Below are positions 26,016-60,375 of a stretch of 60,375 nucleotides of DNA, piece by piece. The DNA lies in IMG/VR virus record IMGVR_UViG_3300046459_000309, positions 1-60,375 of that record. One strand, given 5' to 3'. Position 1 is the first letter of the stretch. Each line of letters starts with the position of its first letter. The notes below the pieces were generated by a model that saw only the letters and a list, made by a program, of their open reading frames with translations, was not told the DNA's origin and made no database searches. The position numbers and the translations under genes are program-made. The stretch comes from a virus.

Positions 26016-26037
26016 GTCCGTGAGTCGACTTGCGGAC
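26016..26037. promoter_or_regulatory. GTCGAC palindrome, copy 3 (gtccgtgagtcgacttgcggac)
   Basis: Read directly; 14 nt upstream of the TTGTGT -35-like hexamer. Confidence 0.65.
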
Positions 26038-26051
26038 GCGTACACACAATG

Positions 26052-26080
26052 TTGTGTCGGCCGCCACACCCGCCTACGCT
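26052..26080 (+). promoter_or_regulatory. sigma70-like promoter (TTGTGT-17 nt-TACGCT), apparently leaderless
   Basis: The -10-like hexamer ends 6 nt before ATG 26087, which has no SD. Confidence 0.5.
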
Positions 26081-26086
26081 CGCCGT

Positions 26087-26713
26087 ATGTCGACCTCACC
26101 CGGGCCGCTCCTTCAGGCGCTGGACGCCGTATGGAAGCATGCCCAAACTCATACCCCGGAGCTGCCGCCTGTGCGCATGGCGCTGTCTCCAGCACCCCCT
26201 ACCGCACACCATGGCAGCGAGCGGTGGACGTGGGACGACGAGGCAGTGACGGGCCTTGTCGTCAGCGCGGACACCCTCTCTGCCGGCTCTGACGCCACAC
26301 TGGAGCTACTGCTCCACGAGGCCGCGCACCTCCTCTGTTTCGTTCGAGGCGTGCAGGACACTTCGTCCCGCGCCGGCGTCTACCACAACGCCGCATATCG
26401 GGACGCTGCTGCGGAGGTGGGGCTCTATTGGCCGCCGGACCAGGAACGTCATCCCCGGAAGGGATACGTTTCTCCTGAACTCACAGACGCCACGAGAGCG
26501 CAGTACGCCGACGTGGCAATGGAGCTGGAGCGAGCCATCCCGCTGGTACTGCCACACCTCGTCCTCCCCGAGACGCCCAGTACCCGCACGTCAGACCGAC
26601 GGACGCGGGCCTGCAAGTGCGCGCGGCCGCGGACCATCAGGGTGTCTCCCACGGTGGCGGAGAAGGGGCCAATCATCTGTGGCATCTGCGAGCAGCCGTT
26701 TACCGAGACGTGA
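26087..26713 (+). CDS. SprT-like HExxH zinc-metallopeptidase-domain protein with C-terminal zinc ribbon
   Basis: Frame of ORF 26030..26713; LLLHEAAHLL; ACKCARP...ICGICEQ. Confidence 0.7.
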   Translation: MSTSPGPLLQALDAVWKHAQTHTPELPPVRMALSPAPPTAHHGSERWTWDDEAVTGLVVSADTLSAGSDATLELLLHEAAHLLCFVRGVQDTSSRAGVYHNAAYRDAAAEVGLYWPPDQERHPRKGYVSPELTDATRAQYADVAMELERAIPLVLPHLVLPETPSTRTSDRRTRACKCARPRTIRVSPTVAEKGPIICGICEQPFTET

Positions 26714-26799
26714 CAACGGACAGGTAAGGTCTGGCTCATGTCAGTGCCTTGCGGTACTGTGACCGCGCCTGCCCCCCATGGTTGATTCGAGAGGTTCCA

Positions 26800-27540
26800 A
26801 TGCCTAGTGAGCTGGACCGTCGCCCCGATACAGGGAGCCCGGCGGCCGTTGACATCGACGACCTACCCACGCTCCAGGTAGAAGACCTGGCGGAGGAGTC
26901 GGAGGGGCAGCTCGTAGCCCGCGGGGCAGCCCTCGCGCGGGAGTATTTCAAGATCGAGGGGAAGGCAACGACCCTCCTCAAGAACCTTGCCGTGACGCAG
27001 GTTGCCTTGCGGGTCAAAATGGACGATCCGCGCGGGACATCGCACGAGTACAGGACCGTCGTGTCGGAGATGTACCGGTCACTGAACATCGCGCCTGACC
27101 GCATCGAACGAACACAGGCGTCCGTCAGGTGGCACATCAGTAACGTGCTCCGCCGCCACCTAACCCCGCGTGAGCTGGAGAAGAACAATCTCCAATCCAC
27201 GTCAGCGCTGGAGCGCATGCAGGACGCCAGGGCTGTAAACGCGATCATCGTCAAGGCGTCGAAGGTGGCGTCCGCTGTCGACAAGTCCACGCCGAAAGGG
27301 CCGGCGAAGAAGGGGCAGCCAGCCGCCCCCGAGCAGGCCGGCCAGCCAGTCAGGGCGACGGCGGACCATCTCAGGCTCGCTGAAGTGGCTGGGAACATCC
27401 TGGACAAGTTCGACCGGAACGTAATCAAGCGGGACATGACGGACGGGCAGCGGTCCGCGCTGGACAAGCAGTTGGCCGCAATGGAGCGCAAGCTAGCGTC
27501 CCTGCGGAAGCTGACACAAAAGCCCAGCTCAAAGGCGTGA
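26800..27540 (+). CDS. hypothetical protein
   Basis: Frame of ORF 26749..27540; ATG 26800 after GAGAGG; 246 aa. Confidence 0.7.
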   Translation: MPSELDRRPDTGSPAAVDIDDLPTLQVEDLAEESEGQLVARGAALAREYFKIEGKATTLLKNLAVTQVALRVKMDDPRGTSHEYRTVVSEMYRSLNIAPDRIERTQASVRWHISNVLRRHLTPRELEKNNLQSTSALERMQDARAVNAIIVKASKVASAVDKSTPKGPAKKGQPAAPEQAGQPVRATADHLRLAEVAGNILDKFDRNVIKRDMTDGQRSALDKQLAAMERKLASLRKLTQKPSSKA

Positions 27541-52286: not shown

Positions 52287-52313
52287 ACGCAAGGCACTGA
52301 CGAAGGAGTGGAC

Positions 52314-52985
52314 ATGAAGGCTTACAAGATCAAGGGCACTACGAACGACGTCACCACTTGCGAGCTGTGCGGTCGGCCGGAGCTGAAGGGCACGGTGATG
52401 CTCGCCCCGCTGGACGTCGACGGCAACGAGGACGGCGACGTCTCGTACTTCGGTACCTCCTGCGCCGCTAAGGCGTCCGGCTGGACGGTCCGGGAGGTCA
52501 ACGCGGGCGTCAAGGCCGCGAAGGTGCAGGCCGCTTCGGAGGAGCGGAACCGGGTCATCGCGGAGCGGGAGGCAGAGAACAAGGCGTACATCCGGTGGGT
52601 TCAGGAGACCTACGGCACCGGCGCCACGTTGAAGGCCGCCGTCCAGGAGTTCGGACTCGTCGGTCTGCGGAAGCAGTTCCTGGCCGCCCGCGACGCCGTG
52701 GACGAGGCGACGGAGCCGGTCACCGTCGACGCCGCCCAGGCCGTCCCCTTTGTCATCGAGCCGCGCGGGATGGTCTACCGGAACGACGGAACGTGCTTCC
52801 AGTGGATGCGGGTCATCAACGGCAAGGTGTTCCACTTCGCTCTGTATGGTCCGGTCGACTACTGGCAGAGCGGAGTCACGTGCCGCGTGTACAGCCACCC
52901 CTACGGCAACGTGTTTGAGAAGACCGTCGTGCACAAGAACATGCACGTGACGGAGTATGTCGCCCCCGCAGCACGCGCAGCCTGA
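52314..52985 (+). CDS. hypothetical protein
   Basis: Frame of ORF 52308..52985; ATG 52314 after GAAGGAG. Confidence 0.7.
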   Translation: MKAYKIKGTTNDVTTCELCGRPELKGTVMLAPLDVDGNEDGDVSYFGTSCAAKASGWTVREVNAGVKAAKVQAASEERNRVIAEREAENKAYIRWVQETYGTGATLKAAVQEFGLVGLRKQFLAARDAVDEATEPVTVDAAQAVPFVIEPRGMVYRNDGTCFQWMRVINGKVFHFALYGPVDYWQSGVTCRVYSHPYGNVFEKTVVHKNMHVTEYVAPAARAA

Positions 52986-53071
52986 CCCACCCGCGGAGCC
53001 CCTGGAAGTAGAGATCCCAGGGGCTCCACTCGCACACCACCACGCACGCCCCCGTTCACGAGTGAGGAACC

Positions 53072-53806
53072 ATGACTACCAACGCCCCCGCCCCGTGGGC
53101 CGTCAGAGCCACCCGGAAGCACGGTCAGACGACCGTCCTCTACGCCGCCCTGGCGCTCTCCGCGCCCGGTGAGTACGCGCTCGCACAGATGGCCGGCTGG
53201 GATCACCGTGTGGCCTGGCTGATGCCGGCCGTTTTGTCGCTCTATGCGGCGATCAGCGCCAGCGTTGCGAAGGCTCAGAAGACAACGGCCCGCGAACTCG
53301 TCGGAACGCCGCAGGAGGCGGAGGCCAAACGTCGTTCCGCCAACGCAACGTGGGGCGCTCTCGTGGCGCTGCTCATCGCAACGGCCGCACAGGTTGCGGA
53401 ACACGTGCTCACAACGGGCGCAACGGGCACGCGGGCATGGGTTGTCATCATCGTCAGCGCCGTTCCGCCGTTGGTAGCGGCCCACGTGCTGCACATCGAC
53501 CCGCCGATGGAGCTGGAGCCGACGGAGGAGCGCGAGACACCCGCGTGGCTGCCACAGGAGGCCCTTCAGGAGCCTGCGGAGGAGCCGGAGCGCCAACTCC
53601 CCGCGCCGCCCGTGGAAGAGCCGGAGAAGCCCATCCTGGTGACCTACAGGGAAGCCGCTGATGCTCTCGACGTCGCTGCGGAGACCGTCCGCGGGTGGAA
53701 GGCGCAGGGAAAGATCATCAGCTACCCCGGACAGGGCACCAACAACGTTCTGGTTGACCTCCGGGAATGCCAGAGCGTCAAGGCCCGCCGTTCAGTCAGC
53801 GTTTAG
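53072..53806 (+). CDS. multi-pass membrane protein with C-terminal excisionase/MerR-type HTH
   Basis: Several hydrophobic segments, PEEPE-rich linker, then LVTYREAADALDVAAETVRGWKAQGKI. Confidence 0.7.
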   Translation: MTTNAPAPWAVRATRKHGQTTVLYAALALSAPGEYALAQMAGWDHRVAWLMPAVLSLYAAISASVAKAQKTTARELVGTPQEAEAKRRSANATWGALVALLIATAAQVAEHVLTTGATGTRAWVVIIVSAVPPLVAAHVLHIDPPMELEPTEERETPAWLPQEALQEPAEEPERQLPAPPVEEPEKPILVTYREAADALDVAAETVRGWKAQGKIISYPGQGTNNVLVDLRECQSVKARRSVSV

Positions 53807-53814
53807 GAGAGATC

Positions 53815-54153
53815 ATGCGAGAAGAACTGTCGGACGAGTGGAGTCGGTGCGTCGTTGTGTCGACGGGTGGCTTCCTGGACTCCGGAATTGTCGGGGTGTG
53901 GGTTGGGGATGACACGGACGAGAACGGCGCCCCCTCCCTGCGTATGCCGGCCAACGATACGCGGAAGCTGGCACACACTCTGCTCCGGGCAGCGGACGAG
54001 GCGGAGGGCGTCAATCACTTCGACGCCCTGGAGGCCCTGATCGTAAAGATCACGCGCGAGAGAACGGCCGCCTTCATCCGCGCCAACATCGACATGCAGG
54101 GCCTGGACTTCCCGGACGCGGAGAGCGTCGCGGTGTGGCTGGAGGAGAGCTGA
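53815..54153 (+). CDS. hypothetical protein
   Basis: Frame of ORF 53767..54153 from ATG 53815 after AGGAGAG. Confidence 0.6.
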   Translation: MREELSDEWSRCVVVSTGGFLDSGIVGVWVGDDTDENGAPSLRMPANDTRKLAHTLLRAADEAEGVNHFDALEALIVKITRERTAAFIRANIDMQGLDFPDAESVAVWLEES

Positions 54154-54365
54154 TGAAGATCACCGCGGAGCGTGTCACCGGTCACGTCTTCGTGGTCGCC
54201 ATCGACGAGACGGAGGCCCTGGAGCTGTTCGACCGGGACAACACCTACGACGCGGAGCGGGAGGCGATCGAGCACGAGAACTACCGGAACCGCTACGACC
54301 GTCACCACTCCGGCGAGACCATGAACACGTACCGCATCGAAGTCCGGGCCGAGAAGGTCCACTGA
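54153..54365 (+). CDS. hypothetical protein (70 aa)
   Basis: Frame of ORF 54135..54365 from ATG 54153 (TGATG overlap). Confidence 0.55.
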   Translation: MKITAERVTGHVFVVAIDETEALELFDRDNTYDAEREAIEHENYRNRYDRHHSGETMNTYRIEVRAEKVH

Positions 54366-54375
54366 GCACCATCGA

Positions 54376-54410
54376 GAGCCCTCGTCGCACTCCGCGGCGG
54401 GGGCTCTTTT
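54376..54410 (+). terminator. rho-independent terminator closing the early region
   Basis: About 12-bp stem (gagccctcgtcg / cgcggcgggggctc) followed by tttt. Confidence 0.8.
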
Positions 54411-54493
54411 GCGTTCAGTGCGCCCTTGACGGACCGGTCCGACAGCGCAACTCTCGTAGAACATCCTGCAACGTCCGCGACCATGGAGGCGTC

Positions 54494-54736
54494 ATGACGT
54501 TACATTTCATCGCGAAGGACCCGAACACGAACGGGGAGAACTGTCCCACCGTGTGGTTCGACGACGAGGCACAGGAGTTCGTCGTCCAGGGGTGGAAGGC
54601 GGACGAGATGCTTCAGCTGAAGTGCCTGGAGGCCGGTCCGATCCCCGACTCCGAAGCCGTGGTCCGGCTCCCCGCGCGCATGATCGACGTACTGAAGGCG
54701 GTGATCGAGGTTGCAGAGCGTTCCCCCGTTCTCTGA
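54494..54736 (+). CDS. small protein partnered with the DUF6879-like gene
   Basis: ORF track; MTLHFIAKDPNTNGENCPTVWFDDEAQEFVVQGW. Confidence 0.65.
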   Translation: MTLHFIAKDPNTNGENCPTVWFDDEAQEFVVQGWKADEMLQLKCLEAGPIPDSEAVVRLPARMIDVLKAVIEVAERSPVL

Positions 54737-55232
54737 ACTCCTGGCCTCGTGCCGGACGTCGGCCGTCCACCTGGAAACGCGCGACGTCTACGGCGTGGTG
54801 GAGGAAGACAAGGACTTCGCCGCGTGGAAGGACGGATGGGCGTACGACATCGACGACCGGTCGTCGTGGTGGAACGACTTCCATCAGACCGTCGCCGATG
54901 GCGTCGCCCGTGGGATCGCCGTGCGTCGGCTGCGAGTGGTCTCCGAGCCCGTGTCCGACTACATCCGTTACGAGCATTCGTGCACGCCGCAGAATCTCGC
55001 GGCCGGCGAGGACGTCAGGTGGCTCCCGCGGCGCCTGGCGTCGGATCTGCTCTTCCCGGGCAATGACTTCTGGCTCTTCGACGAGCAGGCAGTGAAGTTC
55101 GGTCTGTTCACCGGAGAGGGACGGTTCGTCAGGCACGAGATGTCATACGAGCCGACCGTCATCAAGCAGTGTGCGAGCGCCGTGGACGCTGCGTGGGAGC
55201 GCGCGATCCCGCACGCGGAGTTCCAGGTCTGA
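54711..55232 (+). CDS. DUF6879-like protein
   Basis: TTG start; AVHLETRDVYG...RRLRVVSEPVSDYIRYE...WLFDEQ pattern recalled from Streptomyces DUF6879 proteins adjacent to XRE regulators. Confidence 0.6.
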   Translation: MQSVPPFSELLASCRTSAVHLETRDVYGVVEEDKDFAAWKDGWAYDIDDRSSWWNDFHQTVADGVARGIAVRRLRVVSEPVSDYIRYEHSCTPQNLAAGEDVRWLPRRLASDLLFPGNDFWLFDEQAVKFGLFTGEGRFVRHEMSYEPTVIKQCASAVDAAWERAIPHAEFQV

Positions 55233-55235
55233 TCC

Positions 55236-56087
55236 GTGTCCGAAGCCCCGTACCCGTCAGCCCGCATCCACGAAGCGCATGAGCGCGTTGCCGCTCGCCT
55301 TCGGGAGCTCCGTCTCGATGCGGGACTGACGGGCCGCGAGGTGGCCGTCCGCACGGGCTGGCAGACGTCGAAGGTCTCCCGGCTCCAGACCGGTGCCACG
55401 CTGCCCGCAGACGACGACATCCGGGCATGGTGCCGGGCGTGCAACGTGGAGGACGAGGCGGCCGACATCATCGCCGCTGCTCGCGATGCCGGGTCGATGT
55501 ACATGGAGTGGCGACGCCTCCAGCGGACCGGCATGAAGCGGGTGCAGGAGTCCCGGACGCCCATCCACGAGCGGACGAAGGCGCAGCGCGTCTACAGCTC
55601 CAGTGTCATCCCGGGAATGCTTCAGACGCGCGCGTACGCCGCTGCCCTGCTCTCCAACATCGCCCGCTTCCACGGCACCCCGGACGACTCCGCGGAGGCC
55701 GCTGACGCCCGCGTGGCACGATCCCAGATCATCCGCCGGCCAGGGCGCACGTTCTCAATCCTCGTGGAGGAGTCAGTACTCCGTCGACGGGTGGGCAGCG
55801 CGGAAACCATGGCGGCACAGCTGGGGCACCTCCTGACGACCGCTGCGCTCCCTGCCGTCTCCCTTGGCGTCATTCCCGCCTCAGCGCCCGCCATATGGCC
55901 GCTGGAGACATTCACGGTGTACGACGACACCACGGTCTATGTGGAGCTGCTGACGGCCGCACTGACGATTACGGCGCCGTCGGAGATCGCTCAATACCTC
56001 GCCGCGTACGGCGAGATGGCTGACGCTGCGGTGTTCGGCCAGGACGCCTATCGCATCATCGCGGGCGCCCTCTCGGCACTCAGCTGA
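55236..56087 (+). CDS. XRE-family HTH regulator with DUF5753-like C-terminal domain (WhiJ/Scr1-type); candidate repressor
   Basis: GTG start; LRELRLDAGLTGREVAVRTGWQTSKVSRLQTG; 283 aa. Confidence 0.75.
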   Translation: MSEAPYPSARIHEAHERVAARLRELRLDAGLTGREVAVRTGWQTSKVSRLQTGATLPADDDIRAWCRACNVEDEAADIIAAARDAGSMYMEWRRLQRTGMKRVQESRTPIHERTKAQRVYSSSVIPGMLQTRAYAAALLSNIARFHGTPDDSAEAADARVARSQIIRRPGRTFSILVEESVLRRRVGSAETMAAQLGHLLTTAALPAVSLGVIPASAPAIWPLETFTVYDDTTVYVELLTAALTITAPSEIAQYLAAYGEMADAAVFGQDAYRIIAGALSALS

Positions 56088-56178
56088 AGAGCCATAGAAT
56101 TCCGTAGAACTTCGTGGAACCTGCGCCTTTCCGACTCCTACTGTCATCACTGAGACGACACGCGGCGGAGGTGCGGGA

Positions 56179-56394
56179 ATGGACAAGACAGCAATGTCGG
56201 GCCCGGTGTTCTTGACGGATCCATTGCCAGACGAACCCATCCCCGTCCCGGGATGCGACGTCTGCCGCGGATTAGCGGCTTGGTGGCGTCGTGCAATGGA
56301 TCCGAAGAGCGAGTCCTATGACCCTTCACGAGCGTCGGACTGGGCAATCGAGATCCGTCGGCACCCGCACCCGAAGAAGCAGGCGACGGCATGA
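56179..56394 (+). CDS. hypothetical protein
   Basis: ORF track. Confidence 0.55.
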   Translation: MDKTAMSGPVFLTDPLPDEPIPVPGCDVCRGLAAWWRRAMDPKSESYDPSRASDWAIEIRRHPHPKKQATA

Positions 56395-56663
56395 GCACCC
56401 GCGCGCTGATTCGCCCCGTGACGCATCGAATCGTTCAGCACCCGGACACCGACGTCACGTACGAGGCGGAGTGCCTTCATTGCGCGTGGACGGCCACCCC
56501 CTCGACGTCCACGAAAGCGGTAGACGTCGAATGCATGAGCCACGCGGGACGGAGCAATCATCGCGGATTCCGACGGGTAGTTACCGGATTCGCGTTCGTC
56601 GTCCGTGAGGGAGAGGACCCCGTACCGCCGCCCGTCGCGTCCCCCGCGTCGACGAGCACCTAG
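56391..56663 (+). CDS. hypothetical Cys/His protein
   Basis: ORF track; ATGA overlap; ECLHCAW...ECMSHAGRSNH. Confidence 0.6.
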   Translation: MSTRALIRPVTHRIVQHPDTDVTYEAECLHCAWTATPSTSTKAVDVECMSHAGRSNHRGFRRVVTGFAFVVREGEDPVPPPVASPASTST

Positions 56664-56669
56664 GTACGG

Positions 56670-56695
56670 GTCCGTGTCTGCCGACGGACACGGAC
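56670..56695. terminator. hairpin gtccgtgtc-tgccgacg-gacacggac
   Basis: Read directly, 7 nt after the stop at 56663. Confidence 0.5.
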
Positions 56696-56846
56696 AGGGG
56701 GAGGCGGCGTCATCCCACCCGGCGGCGCTGCCTCCTCCCCACAAGCCCGCGCGCTAGGGGCGTCACCTCCGGCGCGCGGTGGACGGCTGGGGCCGGTTCC
56801 TCCGGGGTAGCCCGTGAGGTCGACATGCCGGCCCCGGACCGTCCAT

Positions 56847-56882
56847 GAGCCCCCGTTCTTCCCTGTGGGAGAGCGGGGGCTC
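56847..56882. terminator. hairpin gagcccccg-loop-cgggggctc
   Basis: 9-bp stem; no U-tract. Confidence 0.45.
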
Positions 56883-57005
56883 TGACGTGTGGGCATAGCT
56901 TCTGCGTTGTGAGACGATGCACTACGGGCAGGCGTGATGTGTCGAGTCACAACCTAGGGCTCAATCGCGCCCAGCCCCTGTGACCAGTAGGGAGAACATG
57001 CTCAC

Positions 57006-58505
57006 ATGGAACCCATGAGGGTATTCACGTACCGGCGCATCTCACGCGTCACCGAACGGACGACAAGCATCGAGCGGCAGGGGGAACACCTCGTCGCAGA
57101 ATGTGAACGCCGAGGATGGGTCATCGTGGACGATTTCGCAGACGAGGGCGTCAGCGGGGCCACCGACCCATCAGAGCGGCCGTACATGTCGAAGATGCTT
57201 GCCAGACTGGATGAGGTCGACGCAATCGTCTTCTATCGCCTGGATCGCCTGTGCCGGTCGACGTTGGCGTTCGCGGAGCTGATGGACCTCTGCAAGCGCG
57301 TTGGTGTCGCACTCGTCAGCTGCACCGAACCTCTTGACCTCTCGTCACCTATGGGCGTCGCCATGGCGGAAATCATCGCCGTGTTCGCCAAGCTCGAAAG
57401 GGCAATGATCCGGGAGCGGTCGATGGATGCCCGGCGAAAGGGGATGGAGGATCAAAAGTTCGTCGGAGGACGATTCCCTTACGGCCTGACGCCGGCGCCG
57501 CACCCGTCCGGAAAGGGACGGGCGCTCGTCCGCGACGAAGAAGCCGCGAAGGTGATCCAACGGATGGCCGCAATGGTTGTAGCCGGACACAGCGCGACGG
57601 CTATCGCCAAAATCCTGAACGCGGACAAGGTACTCACGTCCCGCATGAAGGGTGCGACCGCCAAACTGGCCGGCGGACACGAAGCACAGGTGACGTACTG
57701 GCGGGGCAACGCCGTGCGCGCCGTACTGCGCAACAAGGTGCAGCTGGGCTACCGCATCCTGCCCAACGGGCGGCCGGAAACGGGCACCGACGGCCTACCG
57801 CTCATTGTGTGGGAGCCAGTTCTCACATGGGACGAGTGGGAAGCCGTACAGAGCGCACTGGACACCATGGCGGCCACCCGCACGCTACGGCACGACGCCT
57901 ATTGGCTTCAGGGCGTACTCAGGTGCGGTGTGTGCGACGCCAGGATGACTCAAACCGTCGCTCACGGTCGTACGGGGCTCAAATGCGCCCAGCCCAACGA
58001 GAACAGGCATAAGCCCTCCCCGTTCATTCGGGCCGACGACCTGACCGACTGGGTCAACGCACACATGATGGCCGTGCTCGGGTGGTTGCCCATCGTCGAA
58101 AACATCTGGCACGCGGGCAGCAACAGCGCTCAGGAGCGCCGAGAGGTCGCCACCGCTATCAAGCGGCTGCGCGAGGACCGGAGCAAGGGGCTGTACGAGG
58201 GTGAGGAGGATGAAGCGGAATTCGAAGCGGCGATGACCACGCTGATGGCCAAGCGTCGCGTGCTGGCCAGCCTGGAGGACGAAGAGCCACGCTGGGAAAC
58301 CGTGAGCACGGGACGACGCTTCCGTGACGTGTGGGAGTCGTCCAGCGAGGAAGCCCGCGCATCCATGATGCAGAACGCGGGACTTGTGGTCCGCATCGAG
58401 CCGGCGGGAGGCAAGCGACTGCCTGTAGGGGAGCGTGCTCGCATCGAGCCTGAGGACCCAATCGCTACGAGGTTGGCGGAAATCGAAGCGGAGGAGCGGG
58501 AATAG
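57006..58505 (+). CDS. int: large serine recombinase (integrase)
   Basis: YRRISR...SIERQ, GVSG, IVFYRLDRLCRS (resolvase-type catalytic domain); zinc ribbon CGVCDARM...LKC; coiled-coil C-terminus; ATG 57015 is an alternative start. Confidence 0.92.
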   Translation: MEPMRVFTYRRISRVTERTTSIERQGEHLVAECERRGWVIVDDFADEGVSGATDPSERPYMSKMLARLDEVDAIVFYRLDRLCRSTLAFAELMDLCKRVGVALVSCTEPLDLSSPMGVAMAEIIAVFAKLERAMIRERSMDARRKGMEDQKFVGGRFPYGLTPAPHPSGKGRALVRDEEAAKVIQRMAAMVVAGHSATAIAKILNADKVLTSRMKGATAKLAGGHEAQVTYWRGNAVRAVLRNKVQLGYRILPNGRPETGTDGLPLIVWEPVLTWDEWEAVQSALDTMAATRTLRHDAYWLQGVLRCGVCDARMTQTVAHGRTGLKCAQPNENRHKPSPFIRADDLTDWVNAHMMAVLGWLPIVENIWHAGSNSAQERREVATAIKRLREDRSKGLYEGEEDEAEFEAAMTTLMAKRRVLASLEDEEPRWETVSTGRRFRDVWESSSEEARASMMQNAGLVVRIEPAGGKRLPVGERARIEPEDPIATRLAEIEAEERE

Positions 58506-58562
58506 GCATCGTTTGGCAACGGATGGGTAACGTTACGGCTGGTCCGTCAGTCGCGCCCGTGG

Positions 58563-58603
58563 CCCCTCGTCGACGCCGCCTCCGCCCCCTCGTCGACGCC
58601 GCC
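58563..58603. repeat. 18-bp direct repeat cccctcgtcgacgccgcc x2 (58563-58580, 58586-58603)
   Basis: Read directly, just downstream of int. Confidence 0.85.
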
Positions 58604-58613
58604 CACCGCCTCC

Positions 58614-58639
58614 GTTATCCACAGGCGCCTGTGGATAAC
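58614..58639. promoter_or_regulatory. perfect 26-bp palindrome made of two inverted TTATCCACA boxes
   Basis: gttatccacaggc|gcctgtggataac; TTATCCACA equals the classic DnaA-box 9-mer. Confidence 0.7.
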
Positions 58640-58700
58640 TACAGTGAGTGCTGATGGCGGGTCAATTTGTAGCGCTGCGTAGCTGCTTGCGTACCAGATT

Positions 58701-58803
58701 GGCCAAATGGACGAACTAGACCCCTATTTTCAAACCTTCCTTAACGCGTTAAGAGAGAAGTGAAAATAGGGGTTAGTTTGGCATTCTGTCGCCAGACTGT
58801 CCG
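58701..58803. repeat. ~105-bp AT-rich hairpin element, copy 2
   Basis: ggccaaatggacgaactagacccctattttca ... tgaaaataggggttagtttggcattctgtcgccagactgtccg; arm changes relative to copy 1 are compensatory. Confidence 0.85.
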
Positions 58804-58831
58804 GGGGTGGAGACGGCTCATGATCATCCCC

Positions 58832-58852
58832 ATGCCACATGCACCCCATAAC
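58832..58852 (+). promoter_or_regulatory. remnant of the bipartite promoter-like motif (atgccacat fused to gcaccccataac, spacer deleted)
   Basis: Read directly; lies upstream of the tRNA region. Confidence 0.35.
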
Positions 58853-58957
58853 CAAGGTGAGGGAGGAACAGCGACGCCGGCGAATGGCGCGGCATCCTCT
58901 CCCTCCGACGGCCGGCAGCGCTCCCGTGCTCCCCGCACTCTCCTCCGGGTAGAGCGT

Positions 58958-59059
58958 GGTTGAGCGCTGCTGGCCGAACGGTCCTTTCGGCTAACGGTAA
59001 GCCGCCCAGGTAGCGCTTCGGCGTGAAGGGTAATCCTGGTTCGACTCCAGGCGAGACCA
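58958..59059 (+). other. aberrant tRNA-like element: canonical T-arm and 3' acceptor, non-canonical 5' part
   Basis: cctgg-ttcgact-ccagg + cgagacc-a at 59035-59059; upstream part folds into hairpins but has no anticodon loop with U33. Confidence 0.3.
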
Positions 59060-59087
59060 CTGGACGAGGCGGAGCGATGCGCACGCT

Positions 59088-59174
59088 TGCGCGGTAGCTC
59101 AGTCAGGAAGAGCAGCCGTCAGCGACTTTCAGCCGTTGGCGGTGACGTCACGGGTTCGAATCCCGTCCGCGACG
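59088..59174 (+). other. tRNA-like element with a 10-bp extended anticodon stem (loop ACUUUCAGC, UUC Glu-like)
   Basis: Canonical D-arm (tagctcagtcaggaagagc) and T-arm (acggg-ttcgaat-cccgt); acceptor 5/7 paired; 13 extra nt in the anticodon arm. Confidence 0.35.
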
Positions 59175-59237
59175 CCTCGTCTTCGACGTCATGCGCTCCG
59201 GGACCTCTCGGAGCCAGCCTCTGACGTCTATCACTCA

Positions 59238-59262
59238 CCCTGCTCCTTGTGGGCAGGGTTTT
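59238..59262 (+). terminator. terminator-like hairpin between the aberrant and canonical tRNAs
   Basis: ccctgc-tccttgtgg-gcaggg then tttt. Confidence 0.6.
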
Positions 59263-59335
59263 GCTTCCGTAGCTCAGTGGTTAGAGCGTCCGCCTGTCGA
59301 GCGGAGGGGCGTCGGTTCGAATCCGATCGGGAGCG
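59263..59335 (+). tRNA. tRNA-Asp (GTC)
   Basis: Hand-folded cloverleaf: acceptor gcttccg/cgggagc, anticodon loop ctGTCga, T-loop ttcgaat. Confidence 0.85.
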
Positions 59336-59444
59336 CAAAGGTACGGGGCTGCTTCGGCAGGAAAAGCCACCTCCCCGCGAACGTTGGAGCCTTGCGCACC
59401 GGGCCTAGAGCCAGGGAGGCGAAGGAGCGGCCCGACGTCACACA

Positions 59445-59516
59445 CCTTTCGTAGCTCAATGGCTAGAGCCGCGCGTTGTGGTCGCGCTGATCCCGGTTCG
59501 ACTCCGGGCGAAGGGA
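59445..59516 (+). tRNA. tRNA-His (GTG)
   Basis: Acceptor cctttcg/cgaaggg, stem gcgcg/cgcgc, loop ttGTGgt; no encoded G-1. Confidence 0.8.
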
Positions 59517-59568
59517 CGACTGTCCACGAGGTGCCGGCAACGGGGCTCAAATGCCGTGGACAGCTCAA

Positions 59569-59643
59569 GGTCTCGTAGCTCAGTCTGGATAGAGCACCGG
59601 ATTACGGATCCGGGTGTCGGAGGTTCGAATCCTTCCGGGATCA
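59569..59643 (+). tRNA. tRNA-Arg (ACG)
   Basis: Acceptor ggtctcg/cgggatc, stem ccgga/tccgg, loop ttACGga. Confidence 0.85.
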
Positions 59644-59653
59644 CACAGTGCAC

Positions 59654-59725
59654 GCCTAGCTAGCTCAGCGGTAGAGCGTCGGTTTCATACGCCGGAGGTC
59701 GGTGGTTCGAATCCATCGCTTGGCA
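59654..59725 (+). tRNA. tRNA-Met/Ile2 (CAT)
   Basis: Acceptor gcctagc/gcttggc (one mismatch), loop ttCATac. Confidence 0.8.
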
Positions 59726-59874
59726 CTGACGGACGGTCGCAGGCGAGGGGAAACCATCGCACCCGGAGAACAGTCCGGTGATACTGCGGCCGACGTCGAC
59801 ACCCGAGCTTCACGGTTCGGAAGGACGGAAGAACAACGGGGATGGCGGACTACCGTGCGGCCCGCTTCCGTCGA

Positions 59875-59947
59875 ATGGGCGTAGCTCAACTGGAAGAGCG
59901 GCGGTCTCCAAAGCCGCGTGTTGGAGGTTCGAGTCCTCCCGCCTGTG
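59875..59947 (+). tRNA. tRNA-Trp (CCA)
   Basis: Acceptor atgggcg/cgcctgt (two G-U), stem gcggt/gccgc, loop ctCCAaa. Confidence 0.8.
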
Positions 59948-60025
59948 CAAGCCCCGGCGGACCGATCGACGAGGGAGAACCTGCTTTCGCGCAGGCCGCT
60001 CGAAGACATGCCGTCGGGGCTCCAA

Positions 60026-60107
60026 GCGTTGAGTCCTGGGAGGCAAGCGGGCCTGTAAAGCCTGCGCTGCGATAGCGGCTAGCGTGGTTCGATTCCACGG
60101 CGACGCA
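60026..60107 (+). tRNA. tRNA-Tyr (GTA)-like, long variable arm but shortened D-arm
   Basis: Stem cgggc/gcctg with loop ctGTAaa, variable hairpin cgct-gcgat-agcg, T-arm cgtgg-ttcgatt-ccacg, acceptor gcgttga/gcgacgc 6/7. Confidence 0.5.
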
Positions 60108-60110
60108 CGA

Positions 60111-60186
60111 CGGGGTGTGGCGCAGTTGGTAGCGCGCTCGCTTTGGGAGCGAGAGGACGAGTGTTCAAGTCACTCCACCCCGACCA
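60111..60186 (+). tRNA. tRNA-Pro (TGG), CCA encoded
   Basis: Acceptor cggggtg/caccccg, stem ctcgc/gcgag, loop ttTGGga, T-loop ttcaagt, 3' acca. Confidence 0.88.
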
Positions 60187-60192
60187 TAAACG

Positions 60193-60231
60193 CAGGCCCG
60201 CCAGGGAGGAACGATCCCCTGAGCGGGCCTG
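60193..60231. terminator. long hairpin between the tRNA array (+) and the convergent minus-strand gene
   Basis: caggcccgccaggg ... cccctgagcgggcctg, about 14 bp paired. Confidence 0.65.
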
Positions 60232-60238
60232 AGCTACG

Positions 60239-60375
60239 TCACGGCCCGACGCGCCTGAACGTCAGCATGACGCGATCACCCGACGGATGCGGCTCGCTGT
60301 ACTCCAGCTTCCACCCCGCCATCTCGACGCGAGTGACGAGCCTTTCCGACTTGTGGACGCCGCCAATCGCCACGC
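60239..60375 (-). CDS. 3' end (with stop) of the junction-spanning minus-strand gene; 60249-60375 duplicates 1-127
   Basis: Minus strand reads ...MLTFRRVGP-TGA, stop at 60241-60239. Confidence 0.6.
   Translation of the reverse strand, partial: VAIGGVHKSERLVTRVEMAGWKLEYSEPHPSGDRVMLTFRRVGP

What the first reader, a model, noticed from the sequence alone, without database searches (positions are those of the whole stretch)
54494..56663. Host-like XRE/DUF5753 + DUF6879 cassette between the early region and the integrase: candidate immunity or defence module
After the strong terminator at 54376-54410 comes a five-gene block. It comprises an 80-aa protein, a DUF6879-like protein (TTG start overlapping the previous gene), a 283-aa XRE-HTH protein with a long DUF5753-like domain (the WhiJ/Scr1-type family that is abundant in Streptomyces chromosomes and sometimes called TA-antitoxin-like), and two small Cys/His proteins. 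No classical divergently transcribed CI/Cro pair exists in this genome, since every gene here is co-directional with int. This cassette is therefore the best candidate for the lysogeny repressor and perhaps a prophage-expressed exclusion or abortive-infection function. The role of DUF6879 partners is, to my knowledge, undefined.
Basis: partly seen in the sequence, partly recalled or inferred. Interest (0 to 1): 0.62.

Follow-up and report, generated by a model that had tools for sequence, protein, structure and literature searches.

The report
Phage-borne WhiJ-type regulator cassette
A temperate Streptomyces phage carries, next to its integrase, a self-contained five-gene host-type regulatory cassette (a WhiJ-like DNA-binding protein, two undescribed partner proteins and two small zinc-type proteins) that looks like an accessory gene set switched on in the prophage, not the phage's main repressor.

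Summary
Five co-directional genes follow a strong terminator, and DUF6879, HTH_31+DUF5753 and DUF7848 all score far above the Pfam cut-offs.

The window is a complete Samy-like phage. It has a homologue of Samy's constitutively expressed "putative immunity repressor" in the slot where phiC31 keeps gene c, so the cassette is not the only repressor candidate.

The trio of the 80-aa protein (here "p80"), DUF6879 and the XRE/DUF5753 protein is a conserved operon:
- It keeps the same gene order, a 20-29 nt p80/DUF6879 overlap and its own TTGAC promoter in about 78 of 80 chromosomal loci.
- DUF6879 occurs in 105 of 121 sampled Streptomycetaceae genomes, in 1-15 copies.
- Among isolated phages the trio was found only in Kromp, which has a separately annotated repressor.

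A tandem 10-bp direct repeat (GTAGAAC type) occurs only twice in the 60 kb. One copy lies on the p80 promoter and one on the promoter of the 71-aa protein gene ("p71"). This resembles the experimentally mapped WhiJ9 site.

DUF6879 models confidently as a PLD-superfamily fold without the HKD motif. p80 is a family with no Pfam model and is not DUF397.

Best reading: an autoregulated WhiJ-type module carried as a moron (accessory prophage gene set). A toxin-antitoxin or defence role remains possible. No paper mentions DUF6879.

The parts
54374..54408 (+). Intrinsic-terminator hairpin ending the upstream early operon; it insulates the cassette
   Evidence: RNA fold gives dG -36.5 kcal/mol, z -6.8, a 15-bp stem and a U-run. 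The terminator scan also flags it.
54426..54454 (+). Sigma-70 (HrdB)-type promoter of the p80 operon: -35 TTGACG (54426-54431), 17-nt spacer, -10 AACTCT (54449-54454)
   Evidence: TTGAC lies 65-76 nt before the p80 ATG in 70 of 82 homologous loci. It is the most informative block of the aligned upstream regions. Transcription from it has not been shown.
54455..54472 (+). Operator-like tandem direct repeat (CGTAGAAC / CCTGCAAC, 10-bp period) directly after the -10, over the expected transcription start
   Evidence: One of only 2 matches to GTRSAAC-N3-STRSAAC in 60 kb (expected 0.01). The full 19-mer is unique. A period-10 repeat sits at the same place in relatives: 34 of 69 loci match at 6 or more of 7 positions, against 3.7 expected.
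54494..54736 (+). p80: 80-aa protein of an undescribed family, first gene of the operon
   Evidence: No Pfam, PHROG, NCBIfam or PADLOC hit. Homologues lie upstream of DUF6879 in about 78 of 87 loci, including phage Kromp gp31 (46% identity). 402 representative clusters match at E<=1e-3. The AF2 model has pLDDT 89 and no PDB fold match. It is not DUF397 (hhalign probability 0.6%).
54711..55232 (+). DUF6879 protein (173 aa, TTG start, 26-nt overlap with p80): PLD-superfamily fold without the HKD motif
   Evidence: PF21806 at E 3.6e-57. AF2 pLDDT 94.6. The Foldseek top hits are all PLD-fold proteins: PLD3, F13, FAM83 DUF1669, Zucchini, NucT and the TrmBL2 C-terminal domain. The family consensus has no HxK(x)4D.
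55236..56087 (+). WhiJ/Scr1-type transcription factor: N-terminal XRE HTH (HTH_31) plus C-terminal DUF5753
   Evidence: Pfam. phrog_9908 at E 6e-37. It is a sub-family distinct from the DUF397-linked XREs: 44-61% against 23-31% identity.
56073..56120 (+). Promoter-like site (TCGGCA-16-TAGAAT) overlapped by three tandem 10-bp units: CATAGAAT (56093), CGTAGAAC (56103) and CGTGGAAC (56113)
   Evidence: Promoter scan. Second and last match to the operator pattern in the genome. The same 2-3 GTAGAAC units lie in the XRE-p71 spacer of all 8 chromosomal loci that have p71.
56179..56394 (+). p71: small CxxC...H(x)H protein, homologue of Samy gp92
   Evidence: 46% identity to Samy gp92, E 2e-19. C26, C29 and H62 are invariant.
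56391..56663 (+). DUF7848 protein (CxxC...CxxH), same PHROG as Samy gp93
   Evidence: PF25232 at E 4.5e-14. phrog_10944, which is the PHROG named for Samy gp93 in its record.
56666..56742 (+). Two strong GC-rich hairpins closing the cassette, just before the presumed attP and int
   Evidence: Fold of 56655-56760 gives dG -64 kcal/mol, z -4.1. The attP position is inferred from Samy, where the att repeat lies between gp93 and int.
57006..58505 (+). Large serine integrase (context, not part of the cassette)
   Evidence: Resolvase + Recombinase + Zn_ribbon_recom.
26749..27540 (+). Context only: rival candidate for the main immunity repressor
   Evidence: 46% identity over 91% of its length to Samy 'putative immunity repressor' gp32. 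It occupies the phiC31 c slot between dNMP kinase and exonuclease. No BLAST similarity to phiC31 c itself and no PHROG hit.

Best explanation
The block is a self-contained, autoregulated WhiJ-type regulatory module of Streptomyces chromosomal origin. A Samy-like temperate phage carries it as a moron (an accessory gene set with its own promoter) at the attP-proximal end, which becomes the attR edge of the prophage.

Proposed mechanism:
1. A host-type (HrdB-like) promoter after a strong terminator drives p80, DUF6879 and the XRE/DUF5753 regulator. p80 and DUF6879 are translationally coupled through their overlap.
2. The XRE/DUF5753 protein binds tandem 10-bp direct repeats (GTAGAAC/TGCAAC type). 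These cover the transcription start of its own operon and the -10 of the downstream p71-DUF7848 operon, so it represses or tunes both.
3. p80 and DUF6879 act as its partner or signal-input proteins, in the way BldB (DUF397) and AbaA paralogues accompany other WhiJ paralogues. DUF6879 has a non-catalytic-looking PLD-like fold akin to the C-terminal domains of TrmBL2- and FilR1-type regulators.
4. The regulated output is the pair of small zinc-type proteins, and possibly host genes.

The module is not the repressor of the lytic genes.

What is shown: the gene families, the conserved architecture, the promoter and repeat conservation, the restriction of the repeat to the two cassette promoters, the fold, and the host distribution.

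What is inferred: DNA binding by the XRE protein, the direction of regulation, the partner role of p80 and DUF6879, and expression in lysogens.
For: - Families are confirmed.
- The trio's order and overlap are conserved in about 78 of 80 chromosomal loci, 6 IMG/VR contigs and phage Kromp. They also hold across the divergent paralogues of one genome.
- TTGAC -35 lies at a fixed distance in 70 of 82 loci, followed by a period-10 direct repeat enriched over shuffles.
- The repeat pattern occurs only twice in the 60-kb phage, at the two cassette promoters (expected 0.01). It recurs in the XRE-p71 spacer of all 8 loci that have p71.
- In Kromp the corresponding motif occurs twice in 58 kb, both times in its own trio's promoter region.
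- Experimental precedent: WhiJ9 (XRE/DUF5753) binds three 10-bp direct repeats CGxxCTCAAC downstream of its own promoter, autorepresses, and controls the adjacent small gene iosA (PMC10294661).
- Residues in the predicted HTH region differ between operator-unit classes. This is weak and not phylogenetically independent.
- In one Kitasatospora genome the trio lies directly beside XRE-DUF397 pairs in 6 of 13 loci.
- DUF6879 has a PLD fold without HKD and gives weak hits to FilR1_middle.
- Samy's equivalent block is among the most-expressed prophage genes in 10 of 10 non-inducing conditions and lies at the prophage's right end.
- A separate repressor candidate exists.
Against: - There is no expression or binding data for this phage.
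- The partner role of p80 and DUF6879 rests only on analogy. p80 is not DUF397 and no AbaA-like gene is present.
- DUF6879 keeps many invariant polar residues (H20, E22, D25, E100, R103, R107, D119, D124, H168). These could form a non-HKD active site, which would fit an enzyme or toxin better than a passive sensor.
- The -10 of the p80 promoter (AACTCT) is weak, and the promoter call is consensus-based.
- The main-repressor alternative is itself unproven: there is no detectable similarity to phiC31 c.
Confidence: 0.55

Rival explanations
1. Tripartite toxin-antitoxin or abortive-infection module. DUF6879 would be a PLD-fold effector with a non-canonical active site, p80 its translationally coupled antitoxin, and the XRE/DUF5753 protein the transcriptional regulator (as in omega-epsilon-zeta or other three-part systems). 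The prophage would use it for addiction or to exclude other phages.
For: - The tight, conserved 20-29 nt overlap of p80 and DUF6879, and the operon with an XRE gene last.
- A multi-copy, patchy, island- and prophage-associated distribution: 1-15 copies per genome, a serine recombinase within 5 kb in about 9 of 80 loci, and a prophage remnant that kept int plus the cassette.
- A nuclease-associated fold: Nuc, Zucchini and PLD3 are PLD-fold nucleases.
- Many invariant charged residues.
- The location is typical of a prophage moron.
Against: - The catalytic HxK(x)4D of PLD nucleases is absent.
- PADLOC has no match to p80 or DUF6879.
- Intact DUF6879 ORFs occur without a detectable p80, XRE or both (L024, L036, L069, L098).
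- The 15 related XRE/DUF397 pairs tested in S. coelicolor (14 in this study plus Scr1/Scr2 earlier) showed no toxin behaviour (PMC10364602).
- The weak sequence hits point to regulator effector domains (FilR1_middle) rather than nucleases.
Confidence: 0.2
2. The XRE/DUF5753 protein is the phage's lysogeny (immunity) repressor.
For: - It is an XRE-HTH protein next to int.
- It has its own host-type promoter behind a terminator.
- The Samy analogue is highly expressed in lysogens.
- The alternative repressor candidate has no recognisable DNA-binding family hit.
Against: - Its candidate operators occur only inside the cassette.
- 11 GTCGAC palindromes of the CTCCGTGAGTCGACTCACGGAG type lie at early and late operon starts and none lies near the cassette.
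- The same trio is a 1-15-copy chromosomal family.
- Kromp has the trio plus a distinct annotated repressor.
- A homologue of Samy's constitutively expressed repressor sits in the phiC31 c slot.
Confidence: 0.07
3. Neutral or selfish cargo. A host paralogous module was picked up by imprecise excision or recombination at the attP-adjacent hot spot. It is maintained by its own autoregulation and has no role for the phage.
For: - It is rare in phages: among 50,697 phage records the trio was found only in Kromp, with 6 further IMG/VR contigs.
- The slot is variable. Samy carries XRE+DUF397 in the opposite orientation at the same place, and phiC31 carries unrelated gp26-28.
Against: - All five ORFs are intact.
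- GC and GC3 match the phage average, so the pick-up is not recent.
- The window, Samy and prophage remnants all retain the p71/DUF7848-type pair with a WhiJ-like gene next to int.
Confidence: 0.15

Closest known systems
WhiJ-BldB-AbaA paralogous clusters of Streptomyces, in particular iosA-whiJ9-bldB9 of S. venezuelae (PMC10294661)
   Same: - An XRE HTH + DUF5753 regulator.
- Multi-copy paralogous modules.
- A binding site made of 2-3 tandem 10-bp direct repeats ending in (C/G)AAC, placed downstream of the regulator's own promoter.
- An adjacent small-protein gene under the same site.
- Frequent physical adjacency of the trio to XRE-DUF397 pairs.
   Different: - The partner genes are p80 and DUF6879, not DUF397 (BldB) or AbaA-like.
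- They lie upstream of the regulator in the same operon.
- This copy sits on a phage.
- DNA binding has not been tested here.
XRE-DUF397 (Scr1/Scr2) pairs, proposed type II toxin-antitoxin systems (Makarova 2009; PMC10364602)
   Same: The same regulator family (HTH_31 + DUF5753), small co-operonic partners, and a mobile multi-copy distribution. Phage Samy carries such a pair in the syntenic slot.
   Different: There is no DUF397 gene. p80 is unrelated to DUF397 by profile comparison. The gene order is reversed, with the partners first. The toxin-antitoxin behaviour of XRE-DUF397 pairs was not confirmed experimentally.
Streptomyces phage Samy right-end block SAMYPH_89-93 (PMC11302927)
   Same: - Whole-genome synteny with the window.
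- A WhiJ-like XRE/DUF5753 gene plus a p71 homologue (46% identity) and a phrog_10944/DUF7848-type gene next to attP and a serine integrase.
- Expressed in lysogens.
   Different: Samy's XRE gene is only 31% identical, is divergently oriented, and is paired with DUF397. Samy lacks p80 and DUF6879.
Streptomyces phage Kromp gp31-gp30-gp29
   Same: The same three genes in the same order with the same overlap (45-48% identity), and an operator-type repeat confined to its own promoter region.
   Different: The genome position differs (between tail/lysis genes and a tyrosine-integrase lysogeny module). It has no p71 or DUF7848 genes. All three genes are annotated as hypothetical.
PLD-superfamily proteins (Nuc/NucT, Zucchini, PLD3) and non-catalytic PLD-like domains (FAM83 DUF1669, TrmBL2 C-terminal domain)
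   Same: The overall fold of DUF6879 (Foldseek probability 1.0, TM about 0.5).
   Different: There is no HKD motif; 'PGNDFWLFD' appears to occupy the corresponding region, judged by eye from the consensus, not from a structural alignment. There is no sequence-level match to the PLDc families. Whether it has any catalytic activity is unknown.
phiC31 repressor c with its conserved inverted repeats
   Same: A co-directional lysogeny-control layout of the phage as a whole. GTCGAC-centred palindromes are scattered at operon starts.
   Different: That system maps to 26749-27540 and the palindromes, not to this cassette. The cassette uses direct repeats and an unrelated protein.

Membership tests
Pfam PF21806 DUF6879 | Score above the gathering threshold over the whole model | tested here: met
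   192.9 bits against 23.9; model positions 3-165 of 167.
WhiJ/Scr1-type XRE regulators | N-terminal XRE HTH (HTH_31) plus C-terminal DUF5753 | tested here: met
   HTH_31 49.6 bits (cut-off 27) and DUF5753 121.9 bits (cut-off 23.4).
WhiJ/Scr1-type XRE regulators | An adjacent DUF397 (BldB-like) partner gene | tested here: not met
   No DUF397 hit in the cassette. p80 against a DUF397 profile gives hhalign probability 0.6%. A jackhmmer search seeded with DUF397 does not recover p80.
WhiJ/Scr1-type XRE regulators | Binds tandem direct repeats near its own promoter (as shown for WhiJ9) | tested here: inconclusive
   Conserved period-10 repeats lie at both cassette promoters, with 2 sites in 60 kb against 0.01 expected.
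NCBIfam NF058600 Sco1979 family regulator (equivalog) | Score above the curated cut-off | tested here: not met
   93.7 bits against a cut-off of 350. It is a paralogue, not an orthologue.
Phospholipase D superfamily | PLD alpha/beta fold | tested here: met
   AF2 pLDDT 94.6. The top 30 PDB hits are all PLD-fold proteins, E from 6e-6 to 1e-3. The viral library agrees.
Phospholipase D superfamily | Catalytic HxK(x)4D(x)6GSxN (HKD) motif | tested here: not met
   The 84-sequence consensus has no HxK. The invariant His residues are H20 and H168 only. No PLDc Pfam hit appears even at E<=10.
Type II / tripartite toxin-antitoxin systems | A compact co-transcribed operon with overlapping genes and a DNA-binding autoregulator | tested here: met
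   The 26-29 nt overlap, 3-25 nt gaps, and a promoter plus operator-like repeat.
Type II / tripartite toxin-antitoxin systems | One component is toxic and is neutralised by another | not testable with these tools
   No known toxin family is matched. Apparently intact orphan DUF6879 ORFs exist.
Phage immunity repressor (CI / phiC31 c type) | Operators at lytic or early promoters of the same phage | tested here: not met
   The operator-type repeat is found only at 54456 and 56104. No GTCGAC palindrome lies within 52300-60375.
Phage immunity repressor (CI / phiC31 c type) | Expressed in lysogens and required for immunity | not testable with these tools
There is only the Samy analogy.
Known anti-phage defence systems (PADLOC-DB 2.0) | A match to a defence-system protein model | tested here: not met
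   Only weak HTH-level hits for the XRE protein (capH at E 0.0025) and nothing for the other four proteins.
Pfam PF25232 DUF7848 | Score above the gathering threshold | tested here: met
   52.8 bits against 24.5.

The most novel reading that the evidence does not exclude
p80-DUF6879-XRE/DUF5753 is a previously unrecognised, very abundant actinobacterial conflict system. In this reading a PLD-fold effector with a non-HKD active site is held in check by p80 and transcriptionally gated by a WhiJ-type regulator. Temperate phages deploy it from the prophage edge to exclude competing phages or to control host development and prophage induction through the two small zinc proteins.
Probability: 0.2. 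Interest if true: 0.75.

Novelty: new variant of a known kind. Interest (0 to 1): 0.5.

Why it matters
WhiJ-like regulators are among the most expanded and least understood regulator families in Streptomyces. So far they are known only with BldB (DUF397) and AbaA partners.

This work defines a second, equally conserved architecture: p80 + DUF6879 + WhiJ-like, sometimes with p71 + DUF7848. It is present in most Streptomycetaceae genomes, yet DUF6879 and DUF7848 appear in none of the ~8.4 million papers and preprints searched. The work also yields a predicted operator and a fold for DUF6879.

The phage copy is a compact, portable version with just two predicted target promoters. That makes it a convenient system to test what these modules sense and do. 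It can also show whether prophages use them to reprogram host development, as Samy's biology hints, or to fend off other phages.

For annotating this phage, it corrects the repressor assignment.

Tried and rejected
- **p80 as a divergent DUF397/BldB.** Rejected: Pfam scan of 78 members gave no DUF397 hit, jackhmmer from Samy gp90 did not recover p80, and hhalign probability was 0.6%.
- **Fold match for p80.** None; the best PDB E-value was 1.2.
- **DUF6879 as a canonical PLD nuclease.** Rejected for lack of HKD.
- **Sequence search of solved structures.** For DUF6879 and the DUF5753 domain, nothing beyond the HTH.
- **Direct similarity of the 26749-27540 protein to phiC31 repressor c.** Not found (E 0.04 over 24 residues), and there is no PHROG hit. 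Its repressor status rests on synteny and on the Samy paper.
- **phiC31 gp26-28 as homologues of p71/DUF7848.** No.
- **Near-identical phage DNA in GenBank phages.** None.
- **First Kromp operator pattern.** It was mis-spaced and missed the site; this was corrected.
- **tblastx of Samy against the window.** Too noisy; replaced by per-protein tblastn.
- **The 12-bp palindrome CGGACCGGTCCG in the p80 promoter spacer.** Not conserved in relatives, so it is not taken as the operator.
- **Samy gp91-gp92 intergenic region.** It shows only loosely similar AGAAC/GGAAT/GCAAC units. This was inconclusive and is not used.
Full report
**1. What the window is**

The window is a complete IMG/VR virus record of 60,375 bp with a 127-bp terminal repeat. 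Per-protein tblastn shows synteny along its whole length with the temperate Streptomyces phage Samy:
- TerL 88% identity, portal 75%, primase 68%.
- RDF, sigma factor and exonuclease are also shared.

Essentially all genes are on the + strand.

**2. The observation**

Pfam confirms:
- DUF6879 at 192.9 bits.
- HTH_31 + DUF5753 at 49.6 and 121.9 bits.
- DUF7848 for the 90-aa protein.

The 80-aa protein (called p80 here) and the 71-aa protein (p71) match nothing in Pfam, PHROGs, NCBIfam or PADLOC.

Hairpins bracket the block:
- The upstream hairpin at 54374-54408 folds at -36.5 kcal/mol (z -6.8).
- Two strong hairpins follow the last gene at about 56666-56742 (z -4.1).

**3. The trio is a conserved operon of the host**

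A scan of one genome per species found more than 586 relatives of the DUF6879 protein. The 80 best are all from Streptomyces, Kitasatospora or close genera.

In about 78 of these 80 loci the order p80 - DUF6879 - XRE/DUF5753 is kept:
- The p80 stop overlaps the DUF6879 start by 29 or 20 nt.
- The gap before the XRE gene is 6-31 nt.

Family-wide, DUF6879 is present in 105 of 121 sampled genomes at 1-15 copies.

In one Kitasatospora genome the architecture holds even for divergent paralogues. In 6 of its 13 loci the trio lies directly next to a canonical XRE-DUF397 pair.

The trio-linked XRE proteins form their own sub-family: 44-61% identical to the window's, against 23-31% for DUF397-linked ones.

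p80 is a real family: 402 representative clusters at E<=1e-3, almost all of them small stand-alone proteins.

Carriage by phages is rare:
- Among 50,697 phage records only Kromp has the trio (gp31-30-29, 45-48% identity).
- Six IMG/VR contigs also have it, four of them near a contig end, so these may include host flank.

**4. Regulatory anatomy**

Upstream of p80, 70 of 82 loci have TTGAC 65-76 nt before the ATG. A -10 follows, and then a direct repeat with a 10-bp period:
- 34 of 69 loci match at 6 or more of 7 positions, against 3.7 expected from shuffles.
- The repeat unit differs between sub-families: GTAGAAC, GTGCAAC or CTGCACA.

In the window the elements are:
- -35 TTGACG at 54426-54431.
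- -10 AACTCT at 54449-54454.
- Repeat units CGTAGAAC and CCTGCAAC at 54455-54472.
- GGAGG at 54485-54489.

The degenerate pattern GTRSAAC-N3-STRSAAC matches only twice in the whole genome, against 0.01 expected. The second match is at 56104. It is really three units (56093-56120) overlapping a promoter-like site just after the XRE stop and before p71.

All eight chromosomal loci that have a p71 homologue after the trio carry 2-3 GTAGAAC units in the same spacer. The five genes therefore look like one regulon with two promoters.

In Kromp the corresponding motif occurs twice in 58 kb, both times at its own trio's promoter.

The published WhiJ9 site is three 10-bp direct repeats (CGxxCTCAAC) downstream of the whiJ9 promoter. 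It gives autorepression and control of the neighbouring small gene iosA (PMC10294661). This is a close experimental precedent for a DUF5753 regulator.

Residues in the predicted HTH region differ between operator classes. That comparison is not phylogenetically independent.

**5. The proteins**

- **DUF6879.** It models at pLDDT 94.6. Every significant PDB hit has the PLD-superfamily fold: PLD3, vaccinia F13, FAM83 DUF1669, Zucchini, NucT and the TrmBL2 C-terminal domain. The viral structure library agrees. The family has no HxK(x)4D motif. Individual members hit only DUF7931 and FilR1_middle weakly.
- **Reading for DUF6879.** I read it as a PLD-like domain that has lost the canonical chemistry. 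It may be an effector-binding or protein-binding partner of the regulator. The many invariant polar residues leave room for an unconventional enzyme.
- **p80.** It models at pLDDT 89 as a small beta-beta-beta-alpha-beta-alpha unit with no structural neighbour. It is not DUF397.
- **p71.** It has an invariant CxxC and His. p71 is 46% identical to Samy gp92.
- **DUF7848.** It has CxxC...CxxH and shares phrog_10944 with Samy gp93.

**6. Is it the lysogeny repressor?**

Probably not, for four reasons:
- The phage has a 46%-identical homologue of Samy's "putative immunity repressor" at 26749-27540, preceded by the SprT-like gene as in Samy. It lies between the dNMP kinase and exonuclease genes, which is where phiC31 has its co-directional repressor c.
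- The Samy protein is expressed in all conditions (PMC11302927).
- The GTCGAC palindromes are spread from 6.7 to 52.2 kb and none is near the cassette. An earlier follow-up in this scan read them as operators of that repressor type.
- The cassette's own repeat is absent from the rest of the genome.

Caveat: I could not show sequence similarity of the 26749-27540 protein to phiC31 c. It also has no PHROG hit.

**7. Expression**

The best proxy is Samy. SAMYPH_89-94 include the WhiJ-like gp91, DUF397 gp90 and gp92/93. They are among the most-expressed prophage genes in 10 of 10 non- or poorly inducing transcriptomes. They lie at the right edge of the prophage, with int at the left edge.

A chromosomal locus keeps only a serine integrase, a capsid fragment and the five-gene block. 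It looks like a decayed prophage that retained the cassette. Another locus has all five genes next to a recombinase and core genes. The closest relative (72% identity) sits in an ordinary chromosomal context.

**8. Verdict**

- **Best reading (about 0.55).** An autoregulated WhiJ-type module with new partners, carried as a moron and probably expressed in lysogens. It controls itself and the p71-DUF7848 pair.
- **Rival: tripartite toxin-antitoxin or defence system (about 0.2).**
- **Rival: neutral cargo (about 0.15).**
- **Rival: main immunity repressor (about 0.07).**

No paper in the library mentions DUF6879 or DUF7848. The architecture is therefore a new variant of a known kind rather than something categorically new.

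Noticed in passing
window 26030-27540: An SprT-like metalloprotease gene (phrog_6361) is followed by a 263-aa homologue of Samy's putative immunity repressor, in the slot where phiC31 keeps repressor c. The protein has no PHROG hit and no BLAST similarity to phiC31 c, so its DNA-binding domain is uncharacterised.
   Followed up: partly
window 54430-54441: A perfect 12-bp palindrome CGGACCGGTCCG fills the -35/-10 spacer of the p80 promoter. It is not conserved in any of 81 related loci, so it may be chance or a phage-specific extra site.
   Followed up: partly
window 58688-58816 (- strand): A short minus-strand ORF between int and the tRNA array resembles Samy gp33 (49% identity over 45 aa, E 1e-5). 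In Samy, gp33 lies antisense just after the repressor gene. It may be the only minus-strand gene of this genome.
   Followed up: no
L096-L107 (one Kitasatospora genome), e.g. L096:600-3428: The trio is often directly preceded by a canonical XRE-DUF397 (whiJ-bldB type) pair. This gives five-gene arrays xre-duf397-p80-duf6879-xre in 6 of 13 loci. Tandem duplications of DUF6879 also occur (L098, L102; also L083 and L074).
   Followed up: partly
L095:5728-12468: This looks like a decayed prophage. A serine integrase, a 129-aa capsid fragment, the full five-gene block and a DUF397 gene lie between two helicase-like genes (both Helicase_C_3). The cassette appears to outlive the phage.
   Followed up: no
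L002 (Kromp record 26204-26305): Kromp's trio promoter is flanked by two operator-type sites in opposite orientation about 85 bp apart: one upstream of the -35 and one after the -10. Many 'TGCACA-type' chromosomal loci show the same upstream pair, which suggests DNA looping.
   Followed up: partly
window 53072-53806: The C-terminal 85 aa resemble the Samy gp86 DNA-binding protein (47% identity). Samy's record relates gp86 to phiC31 gp25, but tblastn of phiC31 gp25 itself found no match here. There are weak excisionase/MerR-type HTH hits. The N-terminus is hydrophobic. An earlier first-reader note describes this as a membrane-anchored Xis-type protein.
   Followed up: no
alignment A5 (p80 family): 16 of 78 p80 homologues give weak Pfam hits to Subtilosin_A (best E 1.6e-4) and 6 to TY-Chap3 (a peptide-binding chaperone). 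These are probably spurious but were not explained.
   Followed up: no
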